From positions 19,092 through 83,091 of the forward strand of contig DATKWU010000009.1 in the NCBI GenBank assembly GCA_035529375.1: a stretch of DNA of 64,000 nt, written 5' to 3'. Shown here one piece after another: positions 1 through 58,090 of the stretch. The stretch is from Patescibacteria group bacterium. Lineage in GTDB: Bacteria; Patescibacteriota; Microgenomatia; PFEM01; JAHIFH01. The first letter of the stretch is position 1, and each line of letters opens with the position of its first letter. The position numbers and the translations under genes are program-made. A model generated the notes under the pieces. The model was not told the DNA's origin and did not search any database. It was given only the letters and a program-made list of their open reading frames with translations.

Positions 1-687
1 CGTTTTTCAGGAGTAAAAACTTATGTTGTATATAATGGGATTGACCGAAAAATTTTACCTTCAGATAATGAAATTAAGAAAAAAGAGAAAGAATTAATTG
101 AAGGTGTGGGAAAAAAATTAACTTCTGCGATCAAAATTGTCACAGTGATAAGCCTTAATGATGAGAGAAAACTTAAGGGACTTTTAAAAGCTAGGAGGCC
201 TATAGAAAAAATTTTGAAAAAATACAATTGTGTATATTTGATAGTCGCCTATGGAGCATTTTTAAACCAAGCCAAAAAGAAATACAGAGATTTAGAAAAA
301 GTTTATTTTTTTGAAAATCAGAGTAGAAATGAGGTTATGTCCATCTTATGCCTATCTGATATTTTTTATTATCCCACTTTGTTTGATTTGCATCCCAACA
401 CTCTCTTGGAGGCAGGGATTGCAGAGCTACCCGTCGTGACAAAAGCTACTGGTGGGATTCCGGAAATGATTCAGGACCGGAAAACAGGGCTGTTAGTTGA
501 CAATATTAGTCACCAATCCTACGATTATTTAGAGATATTAATTAAAGATCCTAAAAAAAGGAAGCAGCTGGGTAAAGAAAACAAAAAACTGATTTTGAGA
601 AAATTTAATTGGGATAATTTATTTAAAAAATATATTAGACTACTTGATAAATACCTTATTAACAATGTTTTTTCAAAAACCCCATAA
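1..687 (+). CDS. Glycosyltransferase family 4 (GT-B fold), C-terminal part; 5' end lies upstream of the window
   Basis: Frame 1 is open from nt 1 (RFSGVKTYVVYNGIDRKI...), the typical GT4 NGID region. C-terminal EAGIAELPVVTKATGGIPEMIQDRKTGLLVD is the classic GT4 nucleotide-sugar binding motif (E-x7-E region). Confidence 0.8.
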   Translation, partial: RFSGVKTYVVYNGIDRKILPSDNEIKKKEKELIEGVGKKLTSAIKIVTVISLNDERKLKGLLKARRPIEKILKKYNCVYLIVAYGAFLNQAKKKYRDLEKVYFFENQSRNEVMSILCLSDIFYYPTLFDLHPNTLLEAGIAELPVVTKATGGIPEMIQDRKTGLLVDNISHQSYDYLEILIKDPKKRKQLGKENKKLILRKFNWDNLFKKYIRLLDKYLINNVFSKTP

Positions 688-695
688 CTCTTAAT

Positions 696-1802
696 ATGCA
701 AAAAAACAATCGCTTAATTATTATAAGAAATGTATTTTTATTATTAACTGGATTGATTTACTTTATTCTTATACAATACAACAGTAGTTATAGTGAAGCT
801 CTCTTTTTTTTCATCTTTATTTTTGCGATTGGTTACTGTGCCAATTCTCTTCTTGAAATAAATACTAATTGGATGTTGGGAAACTTGATTTTAGCAATAA
901 TCATGAGCTTGAATCTCTCTGGTTTGATTAGTATCTATTCGAGTATGTTAGGCCATTTTAAGTATTCTCATTACTGGGGGGCTGGAGTTTATTTAATTCT
1001 CTCATCGGCTCTTTTTTTTGTTAAAGGAGACAGGAAAAAGTGGAAAAATAAACAAAATTACCTATCCAAAATAAGGGGAGAAATTATTCGTGATTTGTCA
1101 TACGCCCTAATTTGTTTAATAGCGTTTTTCATACTTTCGGCTAACATTTATTCAGAAAATAGATATCCTGCTTATGATCCGTGGACTGTCCATCCTGTTT
1201 CCCAAGAAATAATAAATGGGAATTTAAATTTTTTTGGCGAATTAAAGATTTGGGATCTTGATTTTTACAAAGGGTTCTATTTTACTCATGCATTCTATGC
1301 AAATAATTCCCCAATGCCTGTTCGTTACTGGGGCCTAATTTCTTTTTGCTTAATCTCTGGCTTATTTTATTTAATCTTTATAAATAATTATAATAATCTC
1401 TTAATTGGAATTTCAATTCTTTTTGCCTTGAGTAGTGGAAGAATTATATTTAGGTTTTCCATGCCCATTAGGGAAAACTTCGCTCTTGTCTTTTTGATTT
1501 TTTTTGTTTATTTATTGCATAAATTATTTAGAAAAAGAAGACAAAACATCTCAGCTTTATTGAAATTAATAATACCTCTAACATTATTGGGCTTTTCGCA
1601 TTCCTTCGCATCTGTATTCGTTTCACTTTTTATAATACTAAACATTTTTGAAGAGTTGTTAACTTTTTTTTCACTTCAGAAAAAAGAGGCTCTTTATCGC
1701 TCTATGCTTCTAGTCGGATCTCTCCTAATTGCAACAATTCTCTCCTATAAAGGTTTAGTTCTAATTTTAATAAAACTAATTTTAGGAGAAAGCTTTGTTT
1801 AA
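696..1802 (+). CDS. Polytopic integral membrane protein, function unknown (possibly O-antigen polymerase or ligase-like)
   Basis: 368-aa ORF almost entirely hydrophobic with about 10 predicted TM segments. It is tightly packed after the GT4 gene. No diagnostic motif recognised. Confidence 0.55.
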   Translation: MQKNNRLIIIRNVFLLLTGLIYFILIQYNSSYSEALFFFIFIFAIGYCANSLLEINTNWMLGNLILAIIMSLNLSGLISIYSSMLGHFKYSHYWGAGVYLILSSALFFVKGDRKKWKNKQNYLSKIRGEIIRDLSYALICLIAFFILSANIYSENRYPAYDPWTVHPVSQEIINGNLNFFGELKIWDLDFYKGFYFTHAFYANNSPMPVRYWGLISFCLISGLFYLIFINNYNNLLIGISILFALSSGRIIFRFSMPIRENFALVFLIFFVYLLHKLFRKRRQNISALLKLIIPLTLLGFSHSFASVFVSLFIILNIFEELLTFFSLQKKEALYRSMLLVGSLLIATILSYKGLVLILIKLILGESFV

Positions 1803-1820
1803 TTTAATTTCAGAAATAGT

Positions 1821-2726
1821 ATGAAAATAAAACTATGTCGTCAATTAGGTTGCAGCGCATTAAAATTTATGTATGCAATCCTTTTTGTTTTTTCTTCAGG
1901 ATTCATAACATACCATCAATTTATTATTTGGGAAAGGGGACTTAAGTATATAAATGCTAGTTTGTTTCTAATTTTTGTTATTAATATTTCGATAGTCATA
2001 CTTTCTATCTTCATCATTAAATTTAAAAGTTTTTTATTTGAAAATAAAATTATTATTTCATTTGCATTATCTACCTTTTTGACTTATAGCGGATACATAT
2101 ATTTGATAAACAGGGGGATAAGAGACGCTGCCTCGTTTCGTGGGATAGTCTATATTATTATCTCAACTTGCTTAGTCATTGTTTTAGTTTGGCAAAAAGT
2201 TTTAGAAAAATTTCTCGTGCTCAAGAAAAAAACATACATTTTAATTGTTATGGCGATTTCCATTAACTTAATTCCACAGGCAATACAAACCGCGCAAAAG
2301 CTTCGTATAGGACGAGGAGTTGCTATTTCACAAGCTGATGTTGACCTAATAAAAGAATTTAAAAATCGCTACAACGAAGATATTTATTTTATTTACAAAA
2401 GTGAAAAAAGCCTTATTAATTGTGCAGTCAAATATTATTTAATCGAACAGAGAAAAATGTTTGAGGAAGAAAATTTTACCAGTAACGAATTAGAGGAATT
2501 CTTTTTATCAAAATATAAAGAAAGAAACAAAAAAACATATTTTCTTTATGGAACTGAATATGGATTAGATCAGAATGGAACTGAATATGGATTAGATCAG
2601 AGGGTCCAAGAGGACCATCAAGTATTGGAGGAAACTTGCAAAAAGCTTGAATCCCATAACTGCAATTGCTTATTTGAAAAATTAGACAATTTTGCTTTAA
2701 TAACTATCGAAAATTGCATTGATTAA
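1821..2726 (+). CDS. Hypothetical membrane-anchored protein with internal tandem repeat
   Basis: 301-aa ORF. N-terminal half is hydrophobic (4-5 TM) and the C-terminal part is a charged soluble domain. Contains a perfect tandem peptide repeat GTEYGLDQ x2. Confidence 0.5.
   Translation: MKIKLCRQLGCSALKFMYAILFVFSSGFITYHQFIIWERGLKYINASLFLIFVINISIVILSIFIIKFKSFLFENKIIISFALSTFLTYSGYIYLINRGIRDAASFRGIVYIIISTCLVIVLVWQKVLEKFLVLKKKTYILIVMAISINLIPQAIQTAQKLRIGRGVAISQADVDLIKEFKNRYNEDIYFIYKSEKSLINCAVKYYLIEQRKMFEEENFTSNELEEFFLSKYKERNKKTYFLYGTEYGLDQNGTEYGLDQRVQEDHQVLEETCKKLESHNCNCLFEKLDNFALITIENCID
2550..2603 (+). repeat. 27-bp tandem direct repeat x2 (ggaactgaatatggattagatcag + 3 nt) inside the CDS 1821..2726
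   Basis: Direct reading: copy 1 at 2550-2573 and copy 2 at 2577-2600 are identical over 24 nt, with a period of 27 nt. The repeat is in-frame and encodes GTEYGLDQN/GTEYGLDQR. Confidence 0.9.
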
Positions 2727-3857
2727 TTTATGACGCTTTTTTCTAAGCGCCACGTTGCTAAATTTTTGTTCTGCCCTTTTTTGGGCTCTCTTTTCCATTT
2801 CGTGTATCTCTTTAGGATGAGAGATTGCGTATTTAATTTTTAAGGCAAGTGATCTGGAATCGCCTTTAGAAAAAATTAAACCCGTTTTTAAATCCTCAAC
2901 AAGGTATTCCACTCCGTCAAAGTTAGAAGAAATTACTAGAGCTCCAATTGCCATTGCTTCAATAATCACATTTGGCATAAATTCTGAATAAGATGGAAGA
3001 ACCAATACGTTTGACTTTCTTATAAGATCATAAACCTTTTCTTGTTCCTGATAGCCCCAAAACTTGATTTTTTTTAATTCTAATTTAGCAGCCATATTTT
3101 TAAGGTTATCCATCATTTCTCCATCCCCAATAATTTGACACTCCATCGAATAACCACGCTTTTGTAGGTAGGCAATAGATTCCAATAATATCTCTACTCC
3201 TTTTACTGGTTTCAGCCTGCCAACAAATATCAATTTAAAAGGCTCTTGATTTTTGGTTATTAACTTCTTTTTTGAATATTTATCAACGGCGGGACAAATA
3301 TTTGGTAATACATATAATTTTTTTGAATATTTTGGGAACTTTTTTAACAAAAGCGGAGAGGCGGTTATGACAAAGTCAGAATTTTTAATAACAAAGTTTT
3401 CTAACCTTCTAAAAATTTTTAGCAAAAGAGCTGGAAATTTCTTCTGATAGGTATCACTTCCTCCCGCAACCTTTATCACGCTTTTTTTCTTAAATAGCTT
3501 GCTTAGGATTATAACTTCAATTCCGTAGATCTCGTGTCCCCAAGGGTTAGTAATAATCTTGATTTTTGGATATTTTTTTAATACCAGAAGGGCTTTGATG
3601 AAAGAAGAAATCAAATAAAATATCGAATTAAAATACTTTCCGAATTGACCCTCAAAAAAAAATTGTTTAACCGAATGAATCAGGAGAAGTCCTGAACATC
3701 TTTTGAACAGCCTGCTTACGTTATCTGGTAGAACCATATGTAACCTATCAAAATAGTCAGAAAAAGATTCTATATAAAGTCCTAATTTCCTTTTATGTAA
3801 ATACTCTAAGCCGCTGTCTGCTTTAGTAGAGATTACTAGTACTTCACCCATAAACAA
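2697..3857 (-). CDS. Glycosyltransferase family 4 (GT-B)
   Basis: C-terminal motif VLPSYSEFMPNVIIEAMAIGALVISSNFDGVEYLVEDLKTGLIFSKGD is a canonical GT4 donor-binding signature. Length 386 aa. Confidence 0.85.
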   Translation of the reverse strand: MFMGEVLVISTKADSGLEYLHKRKLGLYIESFSDYFDRLHMVLPDNVSRLFKRCSGLLLIHSVKQFFFEGQFGKYFNSIFYLISSFIKALLVLKKYPKIKIITNPWGHEIYGIEVIILSKLFKKKSVIKVAGGSDTYQKKFPALLLKIFRRLENFVIKNSDFVITASPLLLKKFPKYSKKLYVLPNICPAVDKYSKKKLITKNQEPFKLIFVGRLKPVKGVEILLESIAYLQKRGYSMECQIIGDGEMMDNLKNMAAKLELKKIKFWGYQEQEKVYDLIRKSNVLVLPSYSEFMPNVIIEAMAIGALVISSNFDGVEYLVEDLKTGLIFSKGDSRSLALKIKYAISHPKEIHEMEKRAQKRAEQKFSNVALRKKRHKLINAIFDSY

Positions 3858-3862
3858 AAAAA

Positions 3863-4939
3863 TTAATTTTTAATTAGATTATGAAAAAGGCTGATATAGA
3901 TATCAGCTATATTAGCCCAACTGTATTTTTTTGCAGTCATTCTGGCTCTTTTTGCCATTTCTTCCCTTATCTCTGAGTGTCCCAATAATTTATCTATCAG
4001 TTGCGATAGCTGGCTTATATTCCCGTGTTCTACCACATAACCATTTTGACCATGCTTGATCATGAAGGACATTCCTACCTTATCGCTAACAATTGTGCTG
4101 GTTTCACTAGCCATTGCTTCAAGTGCAACTAGACCAAAAGACTCATATCTGCTAGGAAGAACAAACACATCCGTTCTTCTATAGGCGGATCTAAGCATTT
4201 TTTGATTAAATGGACCAGTAAAATATACTTTTTTTGAGAAATTATTTTCTGAAACCCAACTTTTTAGTTTTCTATCTTGGTCTTTAGGAGGGCCAATTAT
4301 ATAAAGTTTCCAGTTTTTAGTTTTAACTTTTTTTAAGGCCTTAAGTAGAAATAATAGATTTTTTACCTTTTTAGTACCACCAACGAAACTTATAACCTTT
4401 ACACCCCGACAATCATACTTATCAGAAAAAAGCTTTTTAGTAATCTCGTCATTCAAGAAAATATTCCCCACACCATGGGGGATAATATCTATTTTTTTTG
4501 GAGAAATGTTGTAATGGCTTGAGATGCTTAACTTCATAGATAAAGAAATTGTCACTATTTTGTCGGCAGTTTTTAAAATAAATCGCTCAATTATCTCTTT
4601 CCAAAATGGGTGACCTTCTCCCATTTGTCTTTCCAGAAAAATTAAACCATGGACAGTAACCTGAATCTTCTTGCGTCTTAAAAGCCCTACTATGGAAGAA
4701 AATAATATTGCAGGACTAAATCCGTGTAGTGAAAAAATATCTGCGTCAGAGTGAAAAGCTTCAAAAACAAAAAGAATCTTTTTTAAATATTTATTATAAT
4801 TTTTAAATTTTCTTGCAGGAATTGAAAGCTCTATTCCTTTATCCTCCCAGCTCTGTGTGAGGTTATAAATTACTCTCATCGGTCCTGTAAAAACTTGGTC
4901 TTTACTTTTGGGATATTGACCAATTATCATGACCTTCAT
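3863..4939 (-). CDS. Glycosyltransferase family 4 (GT-B)
   Basis: VFVLPSRYESFGLVALEAMASETSTIVSDKVGMSFMIKHGQNGYVVEH is the GT4 E-x7-E motif region. 358 aa. Has a 4-nt overlap with the downstream gene. Confidence 0.85.
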   Translation of the reverse strand: MKVMIIGQYPKSKDQVFTGPMRVIYNLTQSWEDKGIELSIPARKFKNYNKYLKKILFVFEAFHSDADIFSLHGFSPAILFSSIVGLLRRKKIQVTVHGLIFLERQMGEGHPFWKEIIERFILKTADKIVTISLSMKLSISSHYNISPKKIDIIPHGVGNIFLNDEITKKLFSDKYDCRGVKVISFVGGTKKVKNLLFLLKALKKVKTKNWKLYIIGPPKDQDRKLKSWVSENNFSKKVYFTGPFNQKMLRSAYRRTDVFVLPSRYESFGLVALEAMASETSTIVSDKVGMSFMIKHGQNGYVVEHGNISQLSQLIDKLLGHSEIREEMAKRARMTAKKYSWANIADIYISLFHNLIKN

Positions 4940-6480: not shown

Positions 6481-6555
6481 GGATGTCGTCTTTTTATTAT
6501 AACAGGTTGCTTTTTTATTATGTCTCTTTTATCATAATTAAAGGTGTAGAAGCCA

Positions 6556-11022: not shown

Positions 11023-11023
11023 A

Positions 11024-12628: not shown

Positions 12629-12632
12629 AAAA

Positions 12633-12944: not shown

Positions 12945-12947
12945 AAA

Positions 12948-26378: not shown

Positions 26379-26394
26379 TTTTCTAACTTCCTTT

Positions 26395-30934: not shown

Positions 30935-30935
30935 C

Positions 30936-48581: not shown

Positions 48582-49308
48582 TGATTTTAACTCTTAAAAT
48601 CTCGAAAAGCATTTCCTTCGACTCTTTGATAAAATTTTTTTGTTTGCCGCCAACCACATCTCTATCTTCCCAGGCCACCGGCACCTCTTTAATCCGATAG
48701 CCTTTTTTTTCAGCCACAAAAAGCATTTCGACATCCCAAGCACCTACCCGCCAACCTTTTATTTCAGTTATTTGTTTAAAAATCCGCATCTTTCTAAAAA
48801 CCTCCTTACCGGCCTTCCTCTTAAAAGCCTTAAAACCACACTGGGTATCAATAATTTTGGGTAGGAAAAAGATTTGCCGAAAAGACCGGAAACCCCAGGA
48901 AATAATTTTCCGGTACCAAGGAAAGCGTTTCCTTTCTTTGCCTCGAGAGCCAATCACAATCTTAAAATCTTCTTCAAACCAGGGAAGTAATTTTTCCATC
49001 TCTTTAATGGGGACTGACAAATCCATATCCGTAAATAAGATAATCTCTCCTTTTGCTTTTTCCAAACCCGACTTAATGGCAAAAGGCTTACCAGCATGTT
49101 TATTTTTCTTTATTTTGAAACGAGAATGATATTGAGAGAATTTTTCAACCATTTTTAAACTCTTATCAGTTGAACCGTCATCAGAAACAATGACTTCACT
49201 AACATAATCTTGTTTTTTAAGATATTGATCAATTTCCTCTAAAACGCCTCTTTTGAGATTTTTCTCCTCGTTGAACATGGGAATAACAACAGAAAGATAG
49301 GGCTTCAT
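48556..49308 (-). CDS. GT2 polyprenyl-phosphate glycosyltransferase (DPM1/GtrB/ArnC-like)
   Basis: 250 aa. LSVVIPMFNEEKNL...EVIVSDDGSTDKS...ILFTDMDLS has the GtrB/ArnC-like size and motifs. It sits immediately upstream of, and overlaps, an ArnT-like GT-C gene. Confidence 0.75.
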   Translation of the reverse strand: MKPYLSVVIPMFNEEKNLKRGVLEEIDQYLKKQDYVSEVIVSDDGSTDKSLKMVEKFSQYHSRFKIKKNKHAGKPFAIKSGLEKAKGEIILFTDMDLSVPIKEMEKLLPWFEEDFKIVIGSRGKERKRFPWYRKIISWGFRSFRQIFFLPKIIDTQCGFKAFKRKAGKEVFRKMRIFKQITEIKGWRVGAWDVEMLFVAEKKGYRIKEVPVAWEDRDVVGGKQKNFIKESKEMLFEILRVKINDWRGDYD

Positions 49309-49338
49309 TTTTCTTTAAAGAAATTATACCTTATCCGC

Positions 49339-52533: not shown

Positions 52534-54088
52534 TAGGGTAAGAGTGGATCAATTTGTAAATTTTAATCCCTTTGACTTCCCACTCTTGGTCAATTTTAGA
52601 CCAACCAAAATTAGCGATTTCTGCTTGAGGATCAGTGGTCGGCTGACAAGGCAGTTTTTCGCAGACAACAAAAAGCTGGTCCGTAATCGTCTCTTCAGTT
52701 CTTAGGGGTTCGATTGCCGTTGGCGGTATCCCCCACTTCTCCATAAAAAAGGCATAAGCCGCCGCGTAATTTCTTTCGGCAATTAAACCAAGATTAAAAG
52801 GCTTGCCCTTGGCTTGACCAACGAGAAATTGGGCTATTTCCTGAGTCCTCCCTAATTGATTATTCGAAGCTCTTTTTAAAAGATTGTTTTGACAGGCTAA
52901 AGAGATAAGAAAAGTGAAAATAACGAAAAAAATAATTTTCCCGTAGATTTTTTTCTGCCAAGTTTGAGACAAAACCCAACCAACTAAAAGAAAAGGCGCG
53001 GGAAAGAAAAAGCCGAAATAATGATCATAGATATGCTGTTTGTAATTACCTAAACCAAACAAACCAACAATTAACCAAATTAAGATGAGAAACAGGGGTT
53101 TGTTTTCCTGCCAAATCTTTGACCAGTTTGGCTTTCTAGAATAACGATTAAAACTAAAACCAACTAATCCTAAAATTGTTAGAATTACCAGCCAACCACC
53201 ATAGGCTTCGTTTTTAGCGGCAATTAATCTTGTCCATACCTGTGAAGCTAAATTCCAGATTTGAGGAATAGCTTTATAAAACTTAAGATTAACGGTTGTC
53301 TGACGAACAGTGAAAAAGGCTTTAAAAGCCTTAAAATTAATAAAATTATGACGTAAATCAAACCAAGCTAAAGGAAGAATTGTCAGAACGCCAAAAATTA
53401 AAACACAGACCAGAGTGTAAAGAAACAAAGATTTTATTTTAGCCTTGTTTTTCAAGACGTCTTTTAAAGTTAAAAGCCAAAAGAAACTGACTGTCGGAAT
53501 TAAAAGTAAACCCAGATAATGAGATTGCAGGGCAAAGGATAAACCAAGACCAACAATCGGAATCCACCAAAATCTTTGTTTGAGCCAAAATTGATAAACA
53601 CCATAAATTGTTAGTAAAGCGAAAAAAGGCATAATATTAGGATTCCAAGAAGAACGAGAGTAAACAATGACCACCGGTGAAACCGCGTAGAGTAAGGCCG
53701 CAATTAAACCAGCTTGTTGATCAAACCATTCACGGCCGACCCACCAAACAAAACCGATAGTCACCACCCCTAAGAAAGCTACCATCGCACTCGGACCAAT
53801 TGGTGATAAACCAAAAAGAAAAAACCAAGGTAAGGCAAAATAATAATATAAAGGGCCAAGATACATATTACCAATGGAAGTCACCGGACCAATTAAAACA
53901 AACTTTCCGTTTCTAATCATCCTTAACCAAACAAGAGCGTCTCGACCTTCATCACCCAAAAAAGTCATGTACTCAGGGAGGCGATAAAAACGTAAAAAAG
54001 CACCAACCAGAAGAATCAGACTTAAAATGATGACTTCAGTCTGATTATTTTTAACAAACTTGACTATTTTCTTTTTAAATATCTTCAT
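52508..54088 (-). CDS. GT-C glycosyltransferase, ArnT/PMT-like
   Basis: 526 aa. The FLGDEGRDALVW acidic loop follows TM1 and is followed by about 12 TM. Confidence 0.7.
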   Translation of the reverse strand: MKIFKKKIVKFVKNNQTEVIILSLILLVGAFLRFYRLPEYMTFLGDEGRDALVWLRMIRNGKFVLIGPVTSIGNMYLGPLYYYFALPWFFLFGLSPIGPSAMVAFLGVVTIGFVWWVGREWFDQQAGLIAALLYAVSPVVIVYSRSSWNPNIMPFFALLTIYGVYQFWLKQRFWWIPIVGLGLSFALQSHYLGLLLIPTVSFFWLLTLKDVLKNKAKIKSLFLYTLVCVLIFGVLTILPLAWFDLRHNFINFKAFKAFFTVRQTTVNLKFYKAIPQIWNLASQVWTRLIAAKNEAYGGWLVILTILGLVGFSFNRYSRKPNWSKIWQENKPLFLILIWLIVGLFGLGNYKQHIYDHYFGFFFPAPFLLVGWVLSQTWQKKIYGKIIFFVIFTFLISLACQNNLLKRASNNQLGRTQEIAQFLVGQAKGKPFNLGLIAERNYAAAYAFFMEKWGIPPTAIEPLRTEETITDQLFVVCEKLPCQPTTDPQAEIANFGWSKIDQEWEVKGIKIYKLIHSYPNEEILEKK

Positions 54089-54806
54089 TTTTTAATTTCT
54101 TTAATTTTTTTCTTAATCTAAAAAGATCAGTCAAACCACCCAGAATCACTTTTAAGCTTGCTCCCGTGGCTTGGCCTTCTTGCCTGGGAAGATGACGGAC
54201 CCCTATTTCTACAATTTTGAAGCCCGCCTTTTTGGCTTTGATTAATAACTCACTGGTAATAAAAGGACCTCTTTCGGATTCAAGTGCCGGTATTTTTTCA
54301 ATTACTTCTTTTTTAATCATTTTAAAACCACAATCAATGTCTTTTACTTTTAAACCAAAAAGAAAATAAACCGCTGGTTGCCATAAATATTTTGACCCCC
54401 AAATCCGATAAAAAGGCACTTGGCGCTTCAGGTAATAACCAATTACCAAATCCGCCTTAGTTTCCTGTTGAGTTTTAATGAATTCTGTCACTTCACTAAA
54501 ATCAAACTGACCGTCACCATCAGTAAAAACAATCCAGGGATATTGAGAATGATAAAGACCGGATTTAAGCGCCGCCCCATAGCCACGATTGGGGGTGTGG
54601 GTAATCAAGCGAATACGGGATTCTTTTTTTATCAAGCTCCTAACAATCTCACCCGTCTTATCAGTTGAACCATCATCAATCACCATTACTTCCCATTTTT
54701 TGGCTACCTGGGGAATAATCTTAAGAGCTTTAGTGACGGTAGCCTCAATATTAGCTTCTTCATTGTAGGCCGGAAAGAAAACCGAAAGGGCGTCTAGCTT
54801 CTCCAT
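54075..54806 (-). CDS. GT2 polyprenyl-phosphate glycosyltransferase (DPM1/GtrB/ArnC-like)
   Basis: 243 aa. LSVFFPAYNEEANI...VMVIDDGSTDKT...IVFTDGDGQ. It is adjacent to, and overlaps, a GT-C gene. Confidence 0.75.
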   Translation of the reverse strand: MEKLDALSVFFPAYNEEANIEATVTKALKIIPQVAKKWEVMVIDDGSTDKTGEIVRSLIKKESRIRLITHTPNRGYGAALKSGLYHSQYPWIVFTDGDGQFDFSEVTEFIKTQQETKADLVIGYYLKRQVPFYRIWGSKYLWQPAVYFLFGLKVKDIDCGFKMIKKEVIEKIPALESERGPFITSELLIKAKKAGFKIVEIGVRHLPRQEGQATGASLKVILGGLTDLFRLRKKLKKLKNEDI

Positions 54807-54855: not shown

Positions 54856-56019
54856 ATGAAAGTCATCAAAAAATCTTGGCGCGATCTCCTGATTATTAGC
54901 CTGGTCAGCTTAGCTTCAACCGCCCTTATCTGGCTACCTTTTTTCTTAAGACTACCTCGCTTTTGGAATATTAACTTACCGGCCGGAGGAATGGCGACGA
55001 TTATGAAAAATTTTGACGGCCTTTATTACGTGGTGATTGCCAAATCTCTTTACAATCCAGAGATTATTAAGAACCTTGTTCCTTTTGATTTACCGGTTAT
55101 CTATTATGCCGCCCACTTTCCTCTTTATCCCCTTTTAATCAGAATTGGCAGTCTGGTTATCAATTCCCTTTGGTCAATGCTTTCGATTAGCGTTCTGGCG
55201 GCCCTCTTATCGGCTTTTGTTTTTTATCTTTTTCTTAAAGAATTCAGACTCTCAAAAGAACCTCTCTGGCTAGCAATTGTTTACCTTCTATTTCCGGCTC
55301 GCTGGCTGATTGTCCGCTCCGTCGGTTCACCCGAACCTCTATTCATTCTTTTCTTGCTTCTCTCCTTTTACTTTTTTAAGAAGAAAAATTGGTGGCTGGC
55401 TGGGAGTTTTGGGGCCCTGGCCCAACTAACCAAACCGCCGGGAATTTTGCTTTTTCTGGCTTACGGAATCTACATCTTCTGGCAAAATTGGCAGGCAATT
55501 AAAGAAGATTGGCAAACCAAACTAAGTCAGCTAACTAAAACCTATGCTCCTCTTTTCTTGATCCCTTTAGCTCTTTTAGTAGTCTCCCTATACTATTTAT
55601 ATATCTATGGCGATTTCTTTGCCTATTTTCATTCAGGTGACAATATTCATCTTTTCTGGCCACCCTTGCAAATTTTTAATGCGGCTGCCGCCTGGGTAGG
55701 CACTTATTGGCTAGAAGAAGCAATTTATATTTATTTAATAGGAATTTTAGGGGTGATTTATTTGTTTAAACAAAAACGTTATGAACTGGGATTTTTTACG
55801 GCGGTCTTTTATTTCACCACTCTTTTTATCTCTCACCGGGATATTAGTCGTTACAGCCTACCCATGCTCCCTTTCATTCTGATTGCTTTTGACAAATTTT
55901 TAGTCAGAAAAGAATTTAAAATTGCTTTTGGAGTAATTCTCTTACCAATCTATCTTTATGCTATCAATTTCATTACGGGGAATACTTTAGCCATTGCTGA
56001 CTGGACTCCATTTTTATAA
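54856..56019 (+). CDS. GT-C-type membrane glycosyltransferase, PIG-V/DUF2029-like
   Basis: 387 aa, polytopic. The motifs NFDGLYYVVIAKSLYN and LAQLTKPPGILLFLAYG are shared in pattern with ORF 18849..20039. Confidence 0.55.
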   Translation: MKVIKKSWRDLLIISLVSLASTALIWLPFFLRLPRFWNINLPAGGMATIMKNFDGLYYVVIAKSLYNPEIIKNLVPFDLPVIYYAAHFPLYPLLIRIGSLVINSLWSMLSISVLAALLSAFVFYLFLKEFRLSKEPLWLAIVYLLFPARWLIVRSVGSPEPLFILFLLLSFYFFKKKNWWLAGSFGALAQLTKPPGILLFLAYGIYIFWQNWQAIKEDWQTKLSQLTKTYAPLFLIPLALLVVSLYYLYIYGDFFAYFHSGDNIHLFWPPLQIFNAAAAWVGTYWLEEAIYIYLIGILGVIYLFKQKRYELGFFTAVFYFTTLFISHRDISRYSLPMLPFILIAFDKFLVRKEFKIAFGVILLPIYLYAINFITGNTLAIADWTPFL

Positions 56020-56913
56020 CTTCCTCACAACCCCCTTCTCCGCATTAACATCAACTAGATCACCATCTTTCAAGGCTTTAGTCGCTATCTGCGTTCCCAC
56101 TACGCAAGGAATTTTCATTTCTCTTGAAATAATAGCCGCATGACACAATATTCCGCCTTCGTCTGTCACAATTGCTGAAGTTTTTTGAATAATAGTGGTA
56201 AATTTAGGGGAAGTCATCTTAGTAACTAAAATCTCACCCTTATTAAACCTTTCTATTCTTGCAGGATCCAAAATAACCCGAACTCTACCACTGGCTTTTC
56301 CTTTAGAAGCAACTATTCCAGAGATTTTCTTAATTTTTTCCGGAGCTTTCGGAATTTTTCTTTTTTTAATAAGGAAGCTATATTTTTTGATTAAATCACC
56401 ATAGGTTTCAGCTAGTTTTTTCTCTCCTCTCCTCAAAAATACTTTTCTTTGGTCATCAACAGAAGTAAGAACTCGTGCGCCCTTATCTTCTCCCCATCCC
56501 TTATCGTTGCACTGAGAGAGAAGGAGGTTTAATTCTCCCAAGCACCCCCACGGAGTGTGAACTAGGATTTGTTTTCTATTAGGAAGAGAATACCTGATAG
56601 TCTTCTTAGACCTTTTCTCAAAATCTAACGGTGATCCGGGAATAATATCAACCTCAAACCCCGTCTTTTTTACAAATTGGTGATATTGTCTAGCGGATTT
56701 TGTTCCTTTAGGCGGATGAATCTCAAGCCCCTCTCCCACTTTCCAGGGAAGTTTATTTTTATTGACTAGAATATTGAAATGCCCTTCCCTAACTTTTACT
56801 TCATAGCCTAAAAGTCTGTAGGCGTACTGAGAAGTAAACACCCAATCGTCTTGAGATAATCCCCAATCCTTGAGAAGCTCTTCTAAACTCTCTAATGCTT
56901 TTTCTATTCCCAT
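56014..56913 (-). CDS. Protein with C-terminal PEP-utilizing-enzyme mobile (phosphohistidine) domain; N-terminal domain unknown
   Basis: The C-terminus GEILVTKMTSPKFTTIIQKTSAIVTDEGGILCHAAIISREMKIPCVVGT matches the swivelling phosphohistidine domain of PEP synthase/PPDK. 299 aa. Confidence 0.6.
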   Translation of the reverse strand: MGIEKALESLEELLKDWGLSQDDWVFTSQYAYRLLGYEVKVREGHFNILVNKNKLPWKVGEGLEIHPPKGTKSARQYHQFVKKTGFEVDIIPGSPLDFEKRSKKTIRYSLPNRKQILVHTPWGCLGELNLLLSQCNDKGWGEDKGARVLTSVDDQRKVFLRRGEKKLAETYGDLIKKYSFLIKKRKIPKAPEKIKKISGIVASKGKASGRVRVILDPARIERFNKGEILVTKMTSPKFTTIIQKTSAIVTDEGGILCHAAIISREMKIPCVVGTQIATKALKDGDLVDVNAEKGVVRKL

Positions 56914-56923
56914 AAAAAGACAC

Positions 56924-58090
56924 CTATCCTATCCTTCTTTGAATCCGGCCAAAAAGTTTAGATTTTCTTGTTTTCCAGATAAAAGTGGTATACATAAAGA
57001 AATTGTAAGGAAGAACCAGAAAACCAATCGCCAAGATTAAGAATATTTGACGCCATTGATCGCCAAAGAAACTCGTCCCGGCCCAAACAACGATCGTCTG
57101 GATAATCAAAGCTCCCATCGAAGTTAAATTAAACTGAATGAATTTGTAGGGCAGTTGTTTTAGCGAAACAATCTTTTTCTCGGCAAAAGTCCAGATATTA
57201 TTGAGAATAAAATTGCTAATAATAGCCAATTCGGTAGCAATGGCTGTGGCCGGACCAGGCGAAAAGCCAGCCCGATAGAAAACTTCTAAACCGATGGCGT
57301 TAACTAAATAACCAATAAAGCCAACTACGGCAAATTTCATGAATTGAATGGTCTTAGGATCTTGAAGCCGCAAAAGAATCACGGAAATAAGAGTCACAAT
57401 CACGTCTTTGCTACTTAACTTAGATCTGCCGATTTCCCGAACTTTGAATCTCAAGGGAATTTCCACTATTTTAGCTTTATTTTGAACTAATTGATAAAGA
57501 ATTTGGGTTTTGTAGAAAAAACCACTGGAAAGGCGAGAAAAATCAATCTGATCAAGAACGCCTCTAGTTCTGGTCAACTTCAAACCTGTGGTCGTGTCTT
57601 TAACAATATTAATCTTAGGAAAAAAGAGAACGATTCGACTAAAAAGACCACCAAAAGTGGTTAAAATCTTTCTAAAAAGACCCCATTCTTTGGGGATTAA
57701 GCCGCCTTTAATAAACCTTGAGCCGATAACATGATCATAACCTTGGTCAAATTTTTTGACTAAATCAATAATGTATTGAGGGTCGTGCTGAAAATCAGCG
57801 TCAAATTCAATTACCGCCACCGCCTCCATCTTTTCCATTGCCTGCTTCATTCCCCGAATATAAGCTGCCCCTAAACCCTCTTTCTTACCTAAAGAAAGCT
57901 CTACATTCTTGTACTTCTTCATCTTCTCTTTAACCACCTCCGCCGTCCCGTCAGGCGAATGATCATCAACCACTAAAATACTCATCTCATATTTCTTGAT
58001 CTTAGGAAAAACCTCTTTTTCTAAGACTTCAATCATCTTGGCAATATTTTCTTTCTCGTTGTAAGTAGGAATAATGACAACAATCTTCAT
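56924..58090 (-). CDS. Polyprenyl-phosphate (dolichyl-phosphate-type) mannosyl/glycosyl transferase GT2 fused to C-terminal GtrA-like membrane domain
   Basis: N-terminus IVVIIPTYNEKENI...ILVVDDHSPDGT...GAAYIRGM is DPM1-like. The C-terminus FMKFAVVGFIGYLVNAIGLEVFYRAGFSPGPATAIATELAIISNFILNNIWTF is the GtrA-family signature. Confidence 0.8.
   Translation of the reverse strand: MKIVVIIPTYNEKENIAKMIEVLEKEVFPKIKKYEMSILVVDDHSPDGTAEVVKEKMKKYKNVELSLGKKEGLGAAYIRGMKQAMEKMEAVAVIEFDADFQHDPQYIIDLVKKFDQGYDHVIGSRFIKGGLIPKEWGLFRKILTTFGGLFSRIVLFFPKINIVKDTTTGLKLTRTRGVLDQIDFSRLSSGFFYKTQILYQLVQNKAKIVEIPLRFKVREIGRSKLSSKDVIVTLISVILLRLQDPKTIQFMKFAVVGFIGYLVNAIGLEVFYRAGFSPGPATAIATELAIISNFILNNIWTFAEKKIVSLKQLPYKFIQFNLTSMGALIIQTIVVWAGTSFFGDQWRQIFLILAIGFLVLPYNFFMYTTFIWKTRKSKLFGRIQRRIG

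What the first reader, a model, noticed from the sequence alone, without database searches (positions are those of the whole stretch)
1..58090. 58-kb glycosylation megacluster with an extreme density of GT-C membrane transferases and lipid-carrier logistics
The cluster contains 5 GT4, about 10 GT2, 3 Wzx/MOP flippases, three SAM methyltransferase domains, RmlC/RmlD-like enzymes, and about 14 polytopic GT-C-type proteins (PMT/ArnT-like x5, YfhO, PIG-V/DUF2029-like x2, HDD-family x3, others). Polyprenyl-P-sugar synthases (GtrB/ArnC/DPM1-type) sit directly next to GT-C genes (48556/46977; 54075/52508; 56924). This repeats the ArnC-ArnT / GtrB-GtrC / Ppm1-Pmt logic several times. The organisation points to extensive periplasmic-face decoration of proteins, lipids or surface polymers with several different sugars. 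Such a concentration in one locus of a small genome is remarkable and may encode a complete surface-glycoprotein or S-layer glycosylation pathway.
Basis: partly seen in the sequence, partly recalled or inferred. Interest (0 to 1): 0.6.

Follow-up and report, generated by a model that had tools for sequence, protein, structure and literature searches.

The report
Giant surface-sugar gene cluster in CPR bacterium
A tiny-genome (Patescibacteria/Microgenomates) bacterium devotes at least 60 kb to one tightly packed locus for building sugars on its cell surface. The locus holds 15 membrane transferases of the GT-C type, and one of them is an unannotated enzyme shaped like the oligosaccharyltransferases that glycosylate proteins in archaea and eukaryotes.

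Summary
HMM searches support nearly every assignment: 5 GT4, 9 GT2, 3 Wzx flippases, 3 SAM-methyltransferase domains and 15 GT-C proteins carrying 16 modules. Three of the GT2s are polyprenyl-phosphate-sugar-synthase-like, and two of these form GT2/GT-C pairs that are conserved in relatives.

The organism is a Patescibacteria (CPR) MAG close to Shapirobacteria/Microgenomates. The locus is not a peculiarity of this genome: its core gene order recurs at 40-57% protein identity in Shapirobacteria, other Microgenomates and a complete 1.08-Mb Woesebacteria genome. It also runs past the left edge of the window.

- The one GT-C-like protein with no Pfam hit (39652-41346) gives a high-confidence model whose best PDB matches are STT3, AglB and PglB, including the AglB C-terminal domain. 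It lacks the WWD motif.
- That protein sits directly after a Wzx flippase and before GT2x3-GT4 in 7 of 7 loci examined.
- The 1064-aa protein is a conserved fusion of two GT-C modules.
- The locus encodes a UDP-sulfoquinovose synthase.

Best reading: an assembly line for lipid-linked glycans, analogous to the archaeal Agl and ER N-glycan pathways. The acceptor (protein or wall polymer) is unresolved. I rate it a new variant of a known kind, of moderate to high interest.

The parts
1..687 (+). GT4 glycosyltransferase, C-terminal part; the gene runs off the left edge of the window
   Evidence: Glycos_transf_1 E 2e-18. There is no stop codon in frame from base 1. The full 363-aa gene is seen in L089.
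696..2726 (+). Two polytopic membrane proteins with no family (696-1802, about 9 TM; 1821-2726). They are candidate Wzy-type polymerases or other cassette-specific proteins, in a low-GC segment (0.29-0.30).
   Evidence: No Pfam hit even at E<1. TM prediction. For 696-1802 the only database hit is itself. GC values.
2697..4939 (-). Two GT4 glycosyltransferases (2697-3857, 3863-4939)
   Evidence: Glycos_transf_1 at 1e-38 and 9e-36
4936..6480 (-). Protein with two class-I SAM methyltransferase domains
   Evidence: Methyltransf_11, two stretches, E 6e-48
6556..8118 (+). Wzx/MOP flippase 1
   Evidence: Polysacc_synt 1e-21, 12 TM
8088..11022 (+). Two soluble alkaline-phosphatase-superfamily (type I phosphodiesterase/NPP) paralogues; role unknown
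   Evidence: Phosphodiest at 4e-33 and 2e-46; 29% identical to each other
11063..12628 (+). UDP-sulfoquinovose synthase (SQD1/SqdB/Agl3 type) with a 97-aa Cys-rich N-terminal extension
   Evidence: NCBIfam UDPsulfquin_syn E 1e-124 (416 bits, below the 575 cut-off). PDB SQD1 1i24 E 1e-78 over the full length, with KLGTxGEYG and YHxSK conserved.
12633..13892 (+). Thioredoxin (12633-12944) and an SDR-type NDP-sugar epimerase/dehydratase (12948-13892)
   Evidence: TIGR01068 at 110.8 bits, above the cut-off. GDP_Man_Dehyd/Epimerase at 3e-57.
13981..15822 (+). GT-C transferase (PMT_2), 613 aa, 12 TM
   Evidence: PMT_2 at 47 bits; TM prediction
15791..17484 (-). Unknown membrane protein (15791-16909) and a small membrane protein with an IPT/TIG domain (16909-17484)
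   Evidence: No Pfam hit for the first; TIG at 1e-4 for the second
17543..18832 (-). Wzx/MOP flippase 2
   Evidence: Polysacc_synt_3 at 1.5e-15
18849..20039 (-). Short GT-C-like protein (396 aa), paralogue of 54856-56019
   Evidence: PMT_2 at 20 bits, below the cut-off. 35% identity to 54856 over 199 aa.
19996..21917 (-). GT4 (19996-21072) and GT2 (21048-21917)
21914..23062 (-). Fusion of a circularly permuted (YlqF/RsgA-like) GTPase and a SIS sugar-phosphate isomerase domain
   Evidence: MMR_HSR1 at 4e-11, SIS_2 at 2e-13; NCBIfam results
23059..28092 (-). Three tandem PMT/PMT_2-type GT-C paralogues (23059-24705, 24702-26378, 26395-28092)
   Evidence: Pfam hits above the cut-off. 33-38% identical to each other over the full length.
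28085..28732 (-). Unknown protein with an N-terminal TM helix and an extracytoplasmic domain
   Evidence: No significant Pfam hit; TM prediction
28729..29985 (-). GT87-type GT-C
   Evidence: GT87 at 33.8 bits; 32% identical to 34801
30128..32437 (-). Two cytoplasmic GT2s (30128-30934, 30936-31796) and a SAM methyltransferase (31793-32437)
   Evidence: orthologues are collinear in L087
32391..34808 (-). YfhO-type GT-C, 805 aa
   Evidence: YfhO at 68.9 bits; an orthologue sits at the same position in L088
34801..36072 (-). GT87-type GT-C
   Evidence: GT87 at 33.4 bits
36042..39643 (-). Conserved block of cytoplasmic transferases: GT4 (36042-37115) and three GT2s (37094, 37833, 38741)
   Evidence: The same order follows the X564 homologue in L087, L088 and L092-L094; L095 ends after the second GT2.
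39652..41346 (-). 'X564': a GT-C with oligosaccharyltransferase-like architecture (TM domain plus AglB-like C-terminal globular domain), no Pfam family and no WWD motif
41324..42823 (-). Wzx/MOP flippase 3, always directly upstream of X564
   Evidence: Polysacc_synt_3 at 5e-51. Neighbourhood seen in 7 of 7 loci. One Wzx-X564 fusion, P0265.
42841..43626 (+). Alpha/beta hydrolase on the opposite strand (possible esterase)
   Evidence: Hydrolase_4 at 8e-22
43623..46992 (-). Two PTPS_related-type GT-C paralogues ('HDD' motif in the first outer loop)
   Evidence: PF10131 at 36.6 and 40.8 bits; 41% identical to each other
46977..49308 (-). Conserved pair: GT-C (PMT_2, 46977-48581) and a soluble GT2 resembling polyprenyl-P-sugar synthases (48556-49308)
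   Evidence: Orthologues are adjacent in L087. In L091 a GT2/GT-C pair occupies the same position by Pfam content.
49339..52533 (-). 1064-aa fusion of two GT-C modules (PTPS_related type, 1-416; PMT_2 type, 583-978) joined by a beta-rich domain
52508..54806 (-). Conserved pair: GT-C (PMT_2, 52508-54088) and a soluble GT2 resembling polyprenyl-P-sugar synthases (54075-54806)
   Evidence: Best PDB matches are ArnC 4e-13, DPMS and GtrB. The pair is conserved in L087 at 57% and 38% identity.
54856..56019 (+). Short GT-C (PMT at 24.5 bits), opposite strand
   Evidence: a similarly placed gene is present in L091
56014..56913 (-). Protein carrying only a PEP-utilising-enzyme mobile (phosphohistidine) domain at its C-terminus; role unknown
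   Evidence: PEP-utilizers at 3e-24; NCBIfam results
56924..58090 (-). Membrane-anchored polyprenyl-phosphate-sugar synthase of the Pyrococcus DPMS type (GT2 plus GtrA-like TM domain)
   Evidence: PF00535 and PF04138; PDB 5mlz E 3e-45 over residues 1-345
58793..60225 (-). RmlD-like reductase (58793-59680) and an RmlC-like cupin epimerase (59677-60225), lying beyond TrmD (58131-58796, +)
   Evidence: RmlD_sub_bind at 6e-54; dTDP_sugar_isom at 2.5e-12. Both are below the NCBIfam equivalog cut-offs. The same RmlC-RmlD-TrmD-DPMS order is found in Woesebacteria L091.

Best explanation
This is the main envelope-glycan locus of a Microgenomates-type CPR bacterium. I read it as an assembly line, not as a set of independent decoration systems. 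Only the family assignments and the conserved gene order are shown; every step below is inferred.

1. Nucleotide-sugar enzymes supply unusual sugars. These are the UDP-sulfoquinovose synthase, an SDR epimerase/dehydratase, the RmlC/RmlD-like pair and a SIS isomerase.
2. Cytoplasmic GT4 and GT2 enzymes build one or more oligosaccharides on a polyprenyl carrier. The conserved core is GT2x3-GT4, plus GT2x2 and a methyltransferase.
3. Wzx-type flippases move these oligosaccharides to the outer face.
4. In parallel, three GT2 enzymes of the DPM1/ArnC/GtrB kind make polyprenyl-phosphate-monosaccharide donors (a fourth lies just left of the window). One of them carries its own GtrA-like membrane domain.
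5. Fifteen GT-C enzymes then use these lipid-linked donors outside the membrane to extend, branch and transfer the glycan.
6. Because GT-Cs far outnumber donor synthases, most must share donors and differ in acceptor position. This is how ALG3/9/12/6/8/10 work in the ER and how the Mpt/Aft/Emb enzymes work in mycobacteria.
7. X564 (39652-41346) follows the third Wzx in every genome examined and has the architecture of STT3/AglB/PglB. It is the best candidate for the enzyme that transfers the flipped oligosaccharide en bloc to its final acceptor, most plausibly a surface protein. It lacks the WWD sequon-binding motif, so it would not act through the canonical N-X-S/T mechanism.
For: -
- The polyprenyl-P-sugar synthase identity rests on 5mlz at E 3e-45 and on ArnC/DPMS/GtrB as the best matches.
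- GT2/GT-C adjacency is conserved at 38-57% identity in L087, and the whole right-hand order RmlC-RmlD-TrmD-DPMS...fusion...Wzx recurs in a complete 1.08-Mb Woesebacteria genome.
- The order Wzx-X564-GT2-GT2-GT2-GT4 was found in all 7 loci examined, at 46-54% identity. L095 ends after the second GT2, and L094 has one gene inserted between Wzx and X564.
- One protein fuses Wzx and X564 in a single chain (P0265).
- By Foldseek 15 of the top 18 hits are STT3, AglB or PglB and 3 are DPY19 (E 2.5e-8 to 3e-6), ArnC's partner ArnT is at 1.5e-4, and PMT is only at 0.18.
- The first outer loops carry invariant acidic residues: D46 in X564, and D39 and D647/D651 in the two halves of the fusion.
- The general framework of GT-A, flippase and GT-C systems, including versions with a soluble GT-A and a Wzx flippase, is described in PMC8035078.
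Against: - There is no biochemical or glycan-structure evidence.
- No initiating phosphoglycosyl transferase and no acceptor gene was found in the window or in the 10 kb to its left.
- X564 lacks the WWD motif that PMC7226087 describes as conserved in all three domains.
- X564 has no sequence-level link to STT3: the Pfam scan of 30 family members gave no STT3 hit and the profile search against PDB sequences gave nothing.
- DPY19, a mono-mannosyltransferase, ranks among the OSTs in Foldseek, so X564 might transfer single sugars.
- In the Woesebacteria locus no X564 homologue follows Wzx.
- PMT_2 and YfhO enzymes in monoderm bacteria usually act on polymers.
Confidence: 0.55

Rival explanations
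1. The locus builds a wall polysaccharide or lipoglycan, and no protein is glycosylated. A polymer is made by the Wzx-dependent route and then elongated and branched outside the membrane by the GT-Cs. It could resemble the rhamnose-rich polysaccharides of streptococci and lactococci, or mycobacterial lipomannan, LAM and arabinogalactan. X564 would be one more polymer-directed GT-C.
For: - PMT_2 and YfhO enzymes of monoderm bacteria glycosylate LTA, WTA and rhamnan (PMC8035078).
- GT87 is the family of mycobacterial PimE-type mannosyltransferases.
- RmlC/RmlD-like genes and GT2s with weak rhamnosyltransferase similarity are present.
- The excess of GT-Cs over donor synthases mirrors mycobacteria.
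- Orphan polytopic proteins in the left cassette could be Wzy polymerases.
- The GT2 plus DUF2304 pair left of the window resembles PpgS/Rv3632 of the arabinogalactan-GalN system (the Rv3632 link is from memory).
Against: - Pfam finds no LCP ligase, chain-length regulator or recognisable Wzy/WaaL domain.
- The best structural relatives of X564 are protein-modifying enzymes (OSTs and DPY19), not Aft/Emb/PimE.
- RmlA and a clear RmlB are absent from the window.
Confidence: 0.35
2. One reading: several independent three-component decoration systems (ArnC-ArnT / GtrB-GtrC type) happen to be clustered. Each adds one sugar to a separate target.
For: Two conserved GT2/GT-C pairs and a DPMS-type enzyme are present. 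B. subtilis and L. lactis each have three such pairs.
Against: - Only 3-4 synthases serve 15 GT-Cs.
- The tandem paralogue sets (a triplet, two pairs and one fusion) and the strictly conserved order with cytoplasmic GT blocks and Wzx point to a sequential pathway.
- Genes overlap, and a run of 23 consecutive minus-strand genes spans 15791-42823.
Confidence: 0.15
3. The left third of the window (about 1-18 kb) is a separately acquired, strain-variable O-antigen- or capsule-like cassette merely abutting the conserved core. The '58-kb megacluster' would then be two or more units.
For: - GC is 0.29-0.34 for most genes in 1-6.5 kb and 12.6-18.8 kb, against 0.36-0.41 in the core.
- This segment has orphan membrane proteins with no homologues outside this MAG.
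- It has its own Wzx and its own strand organisation.
- None of these genes appears in the syntenic loci of relatives.
Against: The segment is contiguous, equally compact and functionally coherent with the core, and it was assembled identically in several samples. The low GC is mild. This is compatible with the main explanation and refines it rather than replacing it.
Confidence: 0.5
4. The locus is an assembly or binning artefact that joins unrelated glycosylation genes.
For: None found.
Against: The same gene order and identical proteins occur on contigs from independent samples: the right half in ENA ERZ27256828/ERZ27256834, JGI 3300031566 and Logan SRR8554643/SRR8554512, and the left end in ENA ERZ27256828 and JGI 3300031566. 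The whole locus lies on a 353-kb NCBI contig. Synteny holds in other genomes.
Confidence: 0.01

Closest known systems
Multi-component transmembrane glycosylation systems of monoderm bacteria (CsbB/GtcA/YfhO; GtlA/GtlB; GacI/J/K/L; CsdAB/CD/EF)
   Same: A GT-A (GT2) enzyme makes a C55-P-sugar, a flippase (GtrA type or Wzx type) moves it, and a PMT_2 or YfhO type GT-C transfers it outside. GT-A/GT-C genes are adjacent. Versions with a soluble GT-A are known (PMC8035078).
   Different: Known genomes have one to three such pairs, scattered. Here 15 GT-Cs lie in one locus with only 3-4 synthases. There are tandem paralogue sets and a GT-C/GT-C fusion. The GT-Cs are interleaved with a cytoplasmic oligosaccharide-building block.
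Archaeal N-glycosylation (Agl) clusters, such as Haloferax volcanii aglB/J/G/I/E/D/R/S/P and Sulfolobus agl3 (compared from my own knowledge of these systems)
   Same: The cast is the same: GT2 enzymes acting on a phosphopolyprenol, a Wzx-like flippase (AglR), a SAM methyltransferase (AglP), a GT-C adding a last sugar from Dol-P-Man outside (AglS), an OST with a short AglB-type C-terminal domain, and a UDP-sulfoquinovose synthase (Agl3). The window GT2s give sub-threshold AglJ and Dol-P-hexose transferase hits. The DPMS is of the Pyrococcus type.
   Different: This is a bacterium. X564 lacks the WWD and DK motifs and has no STT3 Pfam hit. There are many more GT-Cs. No acceptor is known.
Eukaryotic ER N-glycan precursor pathway (ALG GT4/GT2 enzymes, RFT1, DPM1/ALG5, luminal GT-C ALG3/9/12/6/8/10, STT3)
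   Same: The logic matches: cytoplasmic GTs, then a MOP-type flippase, then several GT-Cs using Dol-P-sugars, then an OST-like enzyme. ALG12 and ALG9 are among the structural matches. An Alg6_Alg8-like weak hit appears in L087.
   Different: This is an analogy of logic only. No orthology was shown, and the order of the steps here is unknown.
Mycobacterial and corynebacterial LM/LAM/arabinogalactan GT-C machinery (PimE, MptA-C, AftA-D, Emb; Ppm1; PpgS/Rv3632/Rv3779)
   Same: Many GT-Cs share one or two polyprenyl-P-sugar donors. GT87 is present. A PpgS-like GT2 plus DUF2304 pair lies left of the window. AftA, AftB and AftD are among the structural matches.
   Different: In Actinobacteria these genes are dispersed over a 3-4 Mb genome. 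Here they form one locus in a genome of about 1 Mb. No Emb/Aft-type C-terminal carbohydrate-binding modules were identified.
Oligosaccharyltransferases STT3/AglB/PglB (CAZy GT66), compared with X564 only
   Same: Overall fold, including the C-terminal globular domain, is shared. There is an invariant Asp in the first outer loop. An [ST]-M-I-E motif sits in a long outer loop, reminiscent of TIXE/SVSE (the motif comparison is from memory).
   Different: There is no WWD motif: GxPPP stands at the corresponding place after the last TM helix. There is no DK/MXXI motif, and no sequence-profile similarity.

Membership tests
GT-C glycosyltransferase superfamily (the 15 proteins) | Polytopic membrane protein with 7 to 13 or more TM helices | tested here: met
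   The hydropathy scan gives 6-13 TM helices per protein and 23 for the fusion. AF2 models of two of them are helical bundles.
GT-C glycosyltransferase superfamily (the 15 proteins) | Significant match to a GT-C family model or to a solved GT-C structure | tested here: met
GT-C glycosyltransferase superfamily (the 15 proteins) | Conserved acidic residue (DxD or a modified motif) in the first extracytoplasmic loop | tested here: met
   Tested on the two families that were aligned. D46 is invariant in 30 X564 homologues. D39, and D647/D651, are invariant in 34 fusion homologues. For the others the motif is only visible by eye (DE, HDD, DEA).
Three-/multi-component transmembrane glycosylation system | GT-A enzyme of the polyprenyl-phosphate-sugar synthase type | tested here: met
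   56924 matches 5mlz at E 3e-45 and carries GtrA_DPMS_TM. 54075 matches ArnC at 4e-13, then DPMS and GtrB. 48556 gives PgfS, ArnC and Dol-P-hexose transferase hits. All NCBIfam scores are far below the equivalog cut-offs, so the sugar specificity is unknown.
Three-/multi-component transmembrane glycosylation system | GT-A and GT-C genes adjacent, with adjacency conserved | tested here: met
   Window pairs are 54075/52508 and 48556/46977. The orthologous pairs are present in L087. The same arrangement, by Pfam content, is present in L091.
Three-/multi-component transmembrane glycosylation system | Flippase for the lipid-P-sugar (GtrA type or Wzx type) | tested here: inconclusive
   There is no free-standing GtrA. 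A GtrA-like domain is fused to 56924. Three Wzx genes are present. Which substrate each one flips cannot be told.
Oligosaccharyltransferase STT3/AglB/PglB (GT66), for X564 | GT-C TM domain plus C-terminal globular domain of the AglB/STT3 type | tested here: met
Oligosaccharyltransferase STT3/AglB/PglB (GT66), for X564 | WWD(YG) motif at the start of the C-terminal domain, described as conserved in all three domains (PMC7226087) | tested here: not met
   No WWD or W[WYF]D[YFWNH]G pattern occurs in X564 or in any window protein, and no WWD[YFWNH]G occurs in the six-frame translation of the window. The family has a conserved GxPPP after the last TM helix instead.
Oligosaccharyltransferase STT3/AglB/PglB (GT66), for X564 | EL1 Asp (D47/D56) and the DXD/E metal-binding motif | tested here: inconclusive
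   Invariant D46 (in GHDxxWH) and invariant E157 (in GGESLFW) exist.
Oligosaccharyltransferase STT3/AglB/PglB (GT66), for X564 | DK or MXXI motif | tested here: not met
   No DxxK or MxxI motif is conserved. The nearest thing is the conserved L-E-D-x-x-N-L-x-I at 485-493.
Oligosaccharyltransferase STT3/AglB/PglB (GT66), for X564 | Sequence-profile match to STT3 (PF02516) or to OST chains | tested here: not met
   None of 30 family members hits STT3, and 2 of 30 weakly hit PMT_2. The family profile against PDB sequences gave no hit at E<10.
UDP-sulfoquinovose synthase (SQD1/SqdB/Agl3), for 11063-12628 | Full-length similarity to SQD1 with the catalytic Thr and YxxxK (plus His) conserved | tested here: met
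   1i24 at E 1e-78 over residues 98-493. 'klgtlgeyg' and 'slyhvskv' align with KLGTMGEYG and SFYHLSKV. NCBIfam gives 416 bits, below the 575 equivalog cut-off. The residue roles are from memory.
Wzx/Wzy-dependent polysaccharide pathway | Wzx flippase | tested here: met
   Three Polysacc_synt / Polysacc_synt_3 proteins with 11-12 TM helices
Wzx/Wzy-dependent polysaccharide pathway | Initiating phosphoglycosyl transferase, Wzy polymerase and chain-length regulator | tested here: not met
   No Bac_transf, Glycos_transf_4, Wzy_C or Wzz hit occurs in any window ORF of at least 120 aa, nor in the left flank. The orphan membrane proteins 696-1802 and 1821-2726 remain possible Wzy candidates.
dTDP-L-rhamnose pathway (RmlABCD) | All four enzymes present | tested here: not met
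   RmlD-like scores 183.5 bits against a cut-off of 224. RmlC-like scores 47.5 against 155.75. There is no RmlA. 12948 scores 190 against 365 for RmlB.

The most novel reading that the evidence does not exclude
Microgenomates-type CPR bacteria carry a previously unrecognised branch of the oligosaccharyltransferase lineage: X564, with about 1,700 sequence clusters at 50% identity and no Pfam family. Together with a dedicated Wzx flippase, a conserved GT2x3-GT4 block and a battery of outer-face GT-Cs fed by Dol-P-Man-synthase-like enzymes, it would perform en-bloc glycosylation of surface proteins through a recognition mechanism that does not use WWD or the N-X-S/T sequon. That would be a third bacterial route to OST-type protein glycosylation. 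Its organisation is closer to the archaeal Agl and ER pathways than to Campylobacter Pgl. The glycan may contain sulfoquinovose and methylated sugars.
Probability: 0.25. Interest if true: 0.85.

Novelty: new variant of a known kind. Interest (0 to 1): 0.6.

Why it matters
CPR/Patescibacteria make up a large part of bacterial diversity. Many live attached to host cells, and almost nothing is known about their surface chemistry. A locus of at least 58 kb is about 5% of a genome of roughly 1 Mb. The 1.08-Mb figure comes from the complete Woesebacteria relative; the size of this organism's own genome is not known. A locus that large, conserved across Microgenomates classes, must matter for their biology, whether in attachment, host recognition, phage defence or envelope stability.

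The work gives three concrete handles:
- An unannotated OST-like enzyme family that could be tested heterologously, and that could interest glyco-engineers looking for new transferases.
- A conserved GT-C/GT-C fusion.
- A predicted sulfoquinovose-containing glycan that could be searched for by mass spectrometry in enrichments.

The literature searches (full text of PMC open-access papers and bioRxiv) found no paper that connects Patescibacteria or CPR with GT-C enzymes or oligosaccharyltransferases.

Tried and rejected
1. **Taxonomy from TrmD.** The single genome-collection scan with TrmD returned only hits of 62% identity or less, led by Omnitrophota, with no synteny. This was misleading. It was overruled by a 100% match of X564 to an NCBI 'Patescibacteria group bacterium' protein and by Shapirobacteria/Microgenomates relatives.
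2. **Sequence searches of GT-Cs against PDB.** Three GT-Cs (23059, 43623, 52508) and the X564 family profile found nothing. Only fold comparison worked.
3. **Profile-profile comparison.** hhalign of the X564 family against the fusion family gave probability 2%, so no sequence link exists between these GT-C families.
5. **Homologue search for 696-1802.** Only a self hit came back, so the Wzy idea stays untested.
6. **X564 as a canonical N-OST.** Rejected, because the WWD motif is absent.
7. **X564 as a WaaL/PglL/Wzy-type ligase.** I considered this. No such Pfam hit was found, and no such structure appears among the fold matches.
8. **The extra domain in long X564 homologues.** The N-terminal soluble domain of about 450 aa fused to X564 in other lineages was searched for in the window and in the fetched loci. 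It was not found and has no Pfam family.
9. **tRNAs.** None are present, so there is no sign of an integration site.
10. **ORF 6017-6502 (+).** I treated it as spurious because it lies antisense within the methyltransferase gene.

Full report
**1. What is in the window**

The 64-kb window is about 99% coding. It has 54 genes, most of them overlapping their neighbours by 1-47 bp, and no tRNAs. A run of 23 consecutive minus-strand genes spans 15791-42823. A second run of seven spans 43623-54806, separated from the first only by one plus-strand hydrolase gene.

- five GT4
- nine GT2
- three Wzx/MOP flippases
- three SAM-methyltransferase domains
- fifteen GT-C-type polytopic proteins

Thirteen of the GT-Cs pass Pfam's curated thresholds (PMT/PMT_2, GT87, YfhO, PTPS_related). 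One (18849-20039) is sub-threshold but is a clear paralogue of 54856-56019. One (39652-41346) has no Pfam hit at all and was resolved by structure prediction (section 4).

All-against-all BLAST shows that the GT-Cs fall into old paralogue sets at 26-41% identity:
- a tandem PMT-like triplet (23059-28092)
- a PTPS_related pair (43623-46992)
- a GT87 pair
- a pair of short GT-Cs
- the 1064-aa protein 49339-52533, whose N-half belongs with the PTPS_related pair and whose C-half belongs with 52508-54088

**2. Whose genome it is**

A TrmD-based scan of one genome per species gave only matches of 62% identity or less, headed by Omnitrophota, and no synteny. That was a false lead.

Protein 39652-41346 is 100% identical to an NCBI protein from a 'Patescibacteria group bacterium' MAG on a 353-kb contig. 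Its relatives at 45-51% identity are from Candidatus Shapirobacteria and Microgenomates. Homologues of the 1064-aa protein are from Shapirobacteria and Woesebacteria.

Identical proteins in the same order occur on contigs from independent samples. The right half is seen in five assemblies (two ENA, two Logan, one JGI) and the left end in at least two. Assembly artefact is excluded.

**3. The locus is conserved, and larger than the window**

Left edge. The first gene has no stop codon upstream and is cut by the window edge. On a longer contig the region to the left carries, in order going outward:
- the rest of that GT4
- a DUF2304 membrane protein
- a GT2 whose best NCBIfam matches are the polyprenyl-phospho-GalNAc synthase PpgS, AglJ and Dol-P-hexose transferase
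- a methyltransferase
- a CysN-like GTPase
- a third alkaline-phosphatase-family protein
- a CysD/PAPS-reductase-family protein

Right edge. The RmlD-like and RmlC-like genes lie beyond TrmD (58793-60225).

Relatives:
- In a Shapirobacteria genome (L087), 14 consecutive genes are collinear orthologues of window genes 54075 to 30128 at 38-57% identity. The GT87/YfhO/methyltransferase genes at 31793-36072 and the fusion are not represented in that run. It includes both GT2/GT-C pairs, Wzx, X564, GT2x3, GT4 and GT2x2.
- A Microgenomates contig (L088) shows the order Wzx, X564, GT2 genes, GT4, GT87, YfhO.
- The complete 1,078,985-bp Woesebacteria genome CP066686.1 keeps the order RmlC, RmlD, TrmD, DPMS, short PMT, GT2, GT-C, then further on a GT-C, the fusion, GT2, GT-C, and further on a PMT, Wzx, GT2, GT2.

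The extreme GT-C density is therefore a lineage trait of Microgenomates, not a peculiarity of this genome. By contrast, the left 18 kb has lower GC (0.29-0.34 against 0.36-0.41), orphan membrane proteins and no counterpart in those relatives. It looks like a variable cassette attached to the conserved core.

**4. X564 (39652-41346), the gene that could not be named**

The family has at least 1075 homologues in the word-indexed database. In the 50%-identity representative library it has 1726 clusters at E of 1e-3 or better, and 947 at 1e-30 or better. It has no Pfam model: 0 of 30 members hit STT3 and 2 of 30 weakly hit PMT_2. A family profile finds nothing among PDB sequences.

An AlphaFold2 model built from 30 homologues is confident, with mean pLDDT 89.8 and pTM 0.90.

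Foldseek, an independent method, gives 18 top hits at E 2.5e-8 to 3e-6. Fifteen are OST catalytic subunits (yeast and human STT3, AglB, PglB) and three are the C-mannosyltransferase DPY19. ArnT follows at 1.5e-4, ALG12 at 6e-3 and PMT only at 0.18.

Motifs conserved in the X564 family:
- invariant D46 within GFWGxNGHDxxWH, in the first outer loop
- GGE157SLFWSMQS
- [ST]-M-I-E275-S in a long outer loop, reminiscent of the TIXE/SVSE motif of OSTs (comparison from memory)
- QKGTxWNTIQFFYY
- GxPPP directly after the last TM helix

The WWD motif, which PMC7226087 describes as conserved in all three domains, would sit where GxPPP stands. It is absent from X564 and from the whole window. No DK or MXXI motif is present either.

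Conclusion: X564 has OST architecture, but it fails the defining sequence tests for GT66 and should not be filed as an N-oligosaccharyltransferase.

**5. Genomic coupling of X564**

In the window and in six relatives at 46-54% identity (L087, L088, L092-L095), the X564 homologue lies directly downstream of a Wzx gene. In one locus a single gene is inserted between them. Wherever the contig continues, the X564 homologue lies directly upstream of GT2-GT2-GT2-GT4.

One database protein (P0265, 1639 aa) has a Wzx domain at its N-terminus and the X564 module at its C-terminus.

Many other family members are about 1000-1160 aa. They carry a signal peptide and an unannotated soluble domain of about 450 aa in front of the X564 module. 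That domain is not encoded in the window.

The Woesebacteria locus has no X564 homologue after Wzx, so the association is not universal in the class.

**6. Donor synthases and the GT-C fusion**

56924-58090 matches the Pyrococcus Dol-P-Man synthase structure over residues 1-345 (E 3e-45) and carries the GtrA/DPMS transmembrane domain.

54075-54806 and 48556-49308 are soluble GT2s of 243-250 aa. Their best structural relatives are ArnC, DPMS and GtrB. Each overlaps the start of a PMT_2-type GT-C, and both pairs are conserved. All NCBIfam scores are far below the equivalog cut-offs, so the sugars cannot be named.

The fusion 49339-52533 is a conserved architecture, with roughly 80 full-length homologues of about 1000-1070 aa at 37-46% identity. 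Its model (pLDDT 84.2) shows two helical-bundle modules (1-416 and 583-978) and a beta-rich domain (447-579). Both first loops keep invariant Asp residues, D39 and D647/D651. Both halves are therefore probably active.

**7.

11063-12628 is a UDP-sulfoquinovose synthase homologue. It matches SQD1 at E 1e-78 over the full length with the catalytic Thr and YHxSK motifs aligned. NCBIfam gives 416 bits, below the 575 cut-off. It carries a 97-aa Cys-rich N-terminal extension and is followed by a thioredoxin gene.

Together with the CysN-like and CysD/PAPS-reductase-like genes left of the window, this suggests a local route from sulfate to sulfite to UDP-sulfoquinovose. This is an inference, because no clear APS reductase was identified.

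Other members are an SDR epimerase/dehydratase, a GTPase-SIS fusion, RmlD-like and RmlC-like proteins (both below equivalog cut-offs, with no RmlA), and two soluble alkaline-phosphatase-family paralogues of unknown role.

**8. Mechanism**

Shown: the family assignments, the conserved gene order, the predicted folds and the conserved residues.

Inferred: the whole sequence of steps.
- Cytoplasmic GT2 and GT4 enzymes assemble lipid-linked oligosaccharide(s).
- Wzx proteins flip them.
- DPM1/ArnC-like GT2s supply polyprenyl-P-sugars.
- The GT-Cs extend and branch the glycan on the outer face.
- X564, coupled to Wzx, transfers the product to its acceptor.

The ratio of 15 GT-Cs to 3-4 donor synthases argues for an assembly line rather than for independent three-component decoration systems. 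The same cast of enzymes operates in archaeal Agl pathways (AglJ/G/I/E/D, AglR, AglP, AglS, AglB, Agl3) and in the ER N-glycan pathway. This comparison rests on my own knowledge of those systems.

The main rival is that the acceptor is a wall polysaccharide or lipoglycan, as for PMT_2 and YfhO enzymes of Firmicutes (PMC8035078) and for the mycobacterial GT-C network. The window contains no initiating transferase, no LCP ligase and no acceptor gene, so the sequence alone cannot settle this.

**9. Novelty**

Every enzyme class here is known, and NCBI already labels some of these genes 'glycosyltransferase family 39 protein'.

What is new:
- the scale and conserved organisation of the locus in Microgenomates
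- the conserved GT-C/GT-C fusion
- the OST-like X564 family, with no Pfam family and no WWD motif, coupled to Wzx

Nine full-text literature searches found no paper linking Patescibacteria, CPR, Microgenomates or Woesebacteria with GT-C enzymes, oligosaccharyltransferases, sulfoquinovose or protein glycosylation. That library does not cover most subscription journals.

I rate this a new variant of a known kind, with interest 0.6.

Noticed in passing
window 11063-12944, and L089 3565-6346 (left of the window): A UDP-sulfoquinovose synthase homologue with a 97-aa Cys-rich N-terminal extension is followed by a thioredoxin gene. About 5-7 kb left of the window edge lie CysN-like and CysD/PAPS-reductase-like genes. 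Together they may form a local route from sulfate to UDP-sulfoquinovose in a CPR bacterium.
   Followed up: partly
window 21914-23062 (-): An unusual fusion of a circularly permuted YlqF/RsgA-like GTPase with a SIS sugar-phosphate isomerase domain. It is embedded in the operon between the PMT-like triplet and a GT2.
   Followed up: no
proteins P0229, P0245, P0232, P0283, P0265 (homologues of window 39652-41346): Many X564-family members carry a signal peptide and a conserved soluble domain of about 450 aa (FVTIxNPVRG...YPKSVGAW...TDxYQxWG...STYSVQxNDY). This domain has no Pfam family. One protein also has Wzx fused in front. The domain is not encoded in the window.
   Followed up: partly
window 49339-52533 (-), protein residues 447-579: The linker between the two GT-C modules is a beta-rich domain with invariant cysteines (C456, C557, C562). 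It is probably extracytoplasmic, and may be a carbohydrate- or acceptor-binding module.
   Followed up: no
window 56014-56913 (-): A 299-aa protein whose only recognisable part is the phosphohistidine 'mobile' domain of PEP-utilising enzymes. It sits between a short GT-C and the DPMS-type synthase. At the same place in Woesebacteria there is a zf-ChsH2/OB protein instead.
   Followed up: no
window 8088-11022 (+), and L089 4266-5072: Three soluble type-I phosphodiesterase/alkaline-phosphatase-family proteins occur in and next to the locus. One has a weak phosphonoacetate-hydrolase hit. Their role in glycan modification or nucleotide turnover is unknown.
   Followed up: no
window 58131-58796 (+): The housekeeping gene trmD is embedded between the DPMS-type synthase and RmlD. 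The same arrangement is kept in a Woesebacteria genome (L091). TrmD's best genome-collection hits were Omnitrophota at about 60% identity, which would have misassigned the taxon.
   Followed up: yes
window 1-6500 and 12600-18800: This segment has lower GC (0.29-0.34) than the core (0.36-0.41). Its polytopic membrane proteins have no family, and one of them (696-1802) has no homologue outside this MAG. It appears to be a variable, possibly acquired cassette.
   Followed up: partly
window 59677-60225 (-): The RmlC-like cupin scores far below the RmlC equivalog cut-off (47.5 against 155.75 bits). It also gives an odd weak hit to Polysacc_synt_C. It may be a different sugar epimerase.
   Followed up: no
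L089 7788-8880: A GT2 whose best matches are PpgS, AglJ and Dol-P-hexose transferase is followed by a DUF2304 small membrane protein. This resembles (from memory) the mycobacterial PpgS/Rv3632 pair that feeds the GT-C Rv3779. It would be a fourth lipid-P-sugar synthase for this locus.
   Followed up: partly
window 6017-6502 (+): A 161-aa ORF lies antisense within the double-methyltransferase gene. It is probably not a gene.
   Followed up: no
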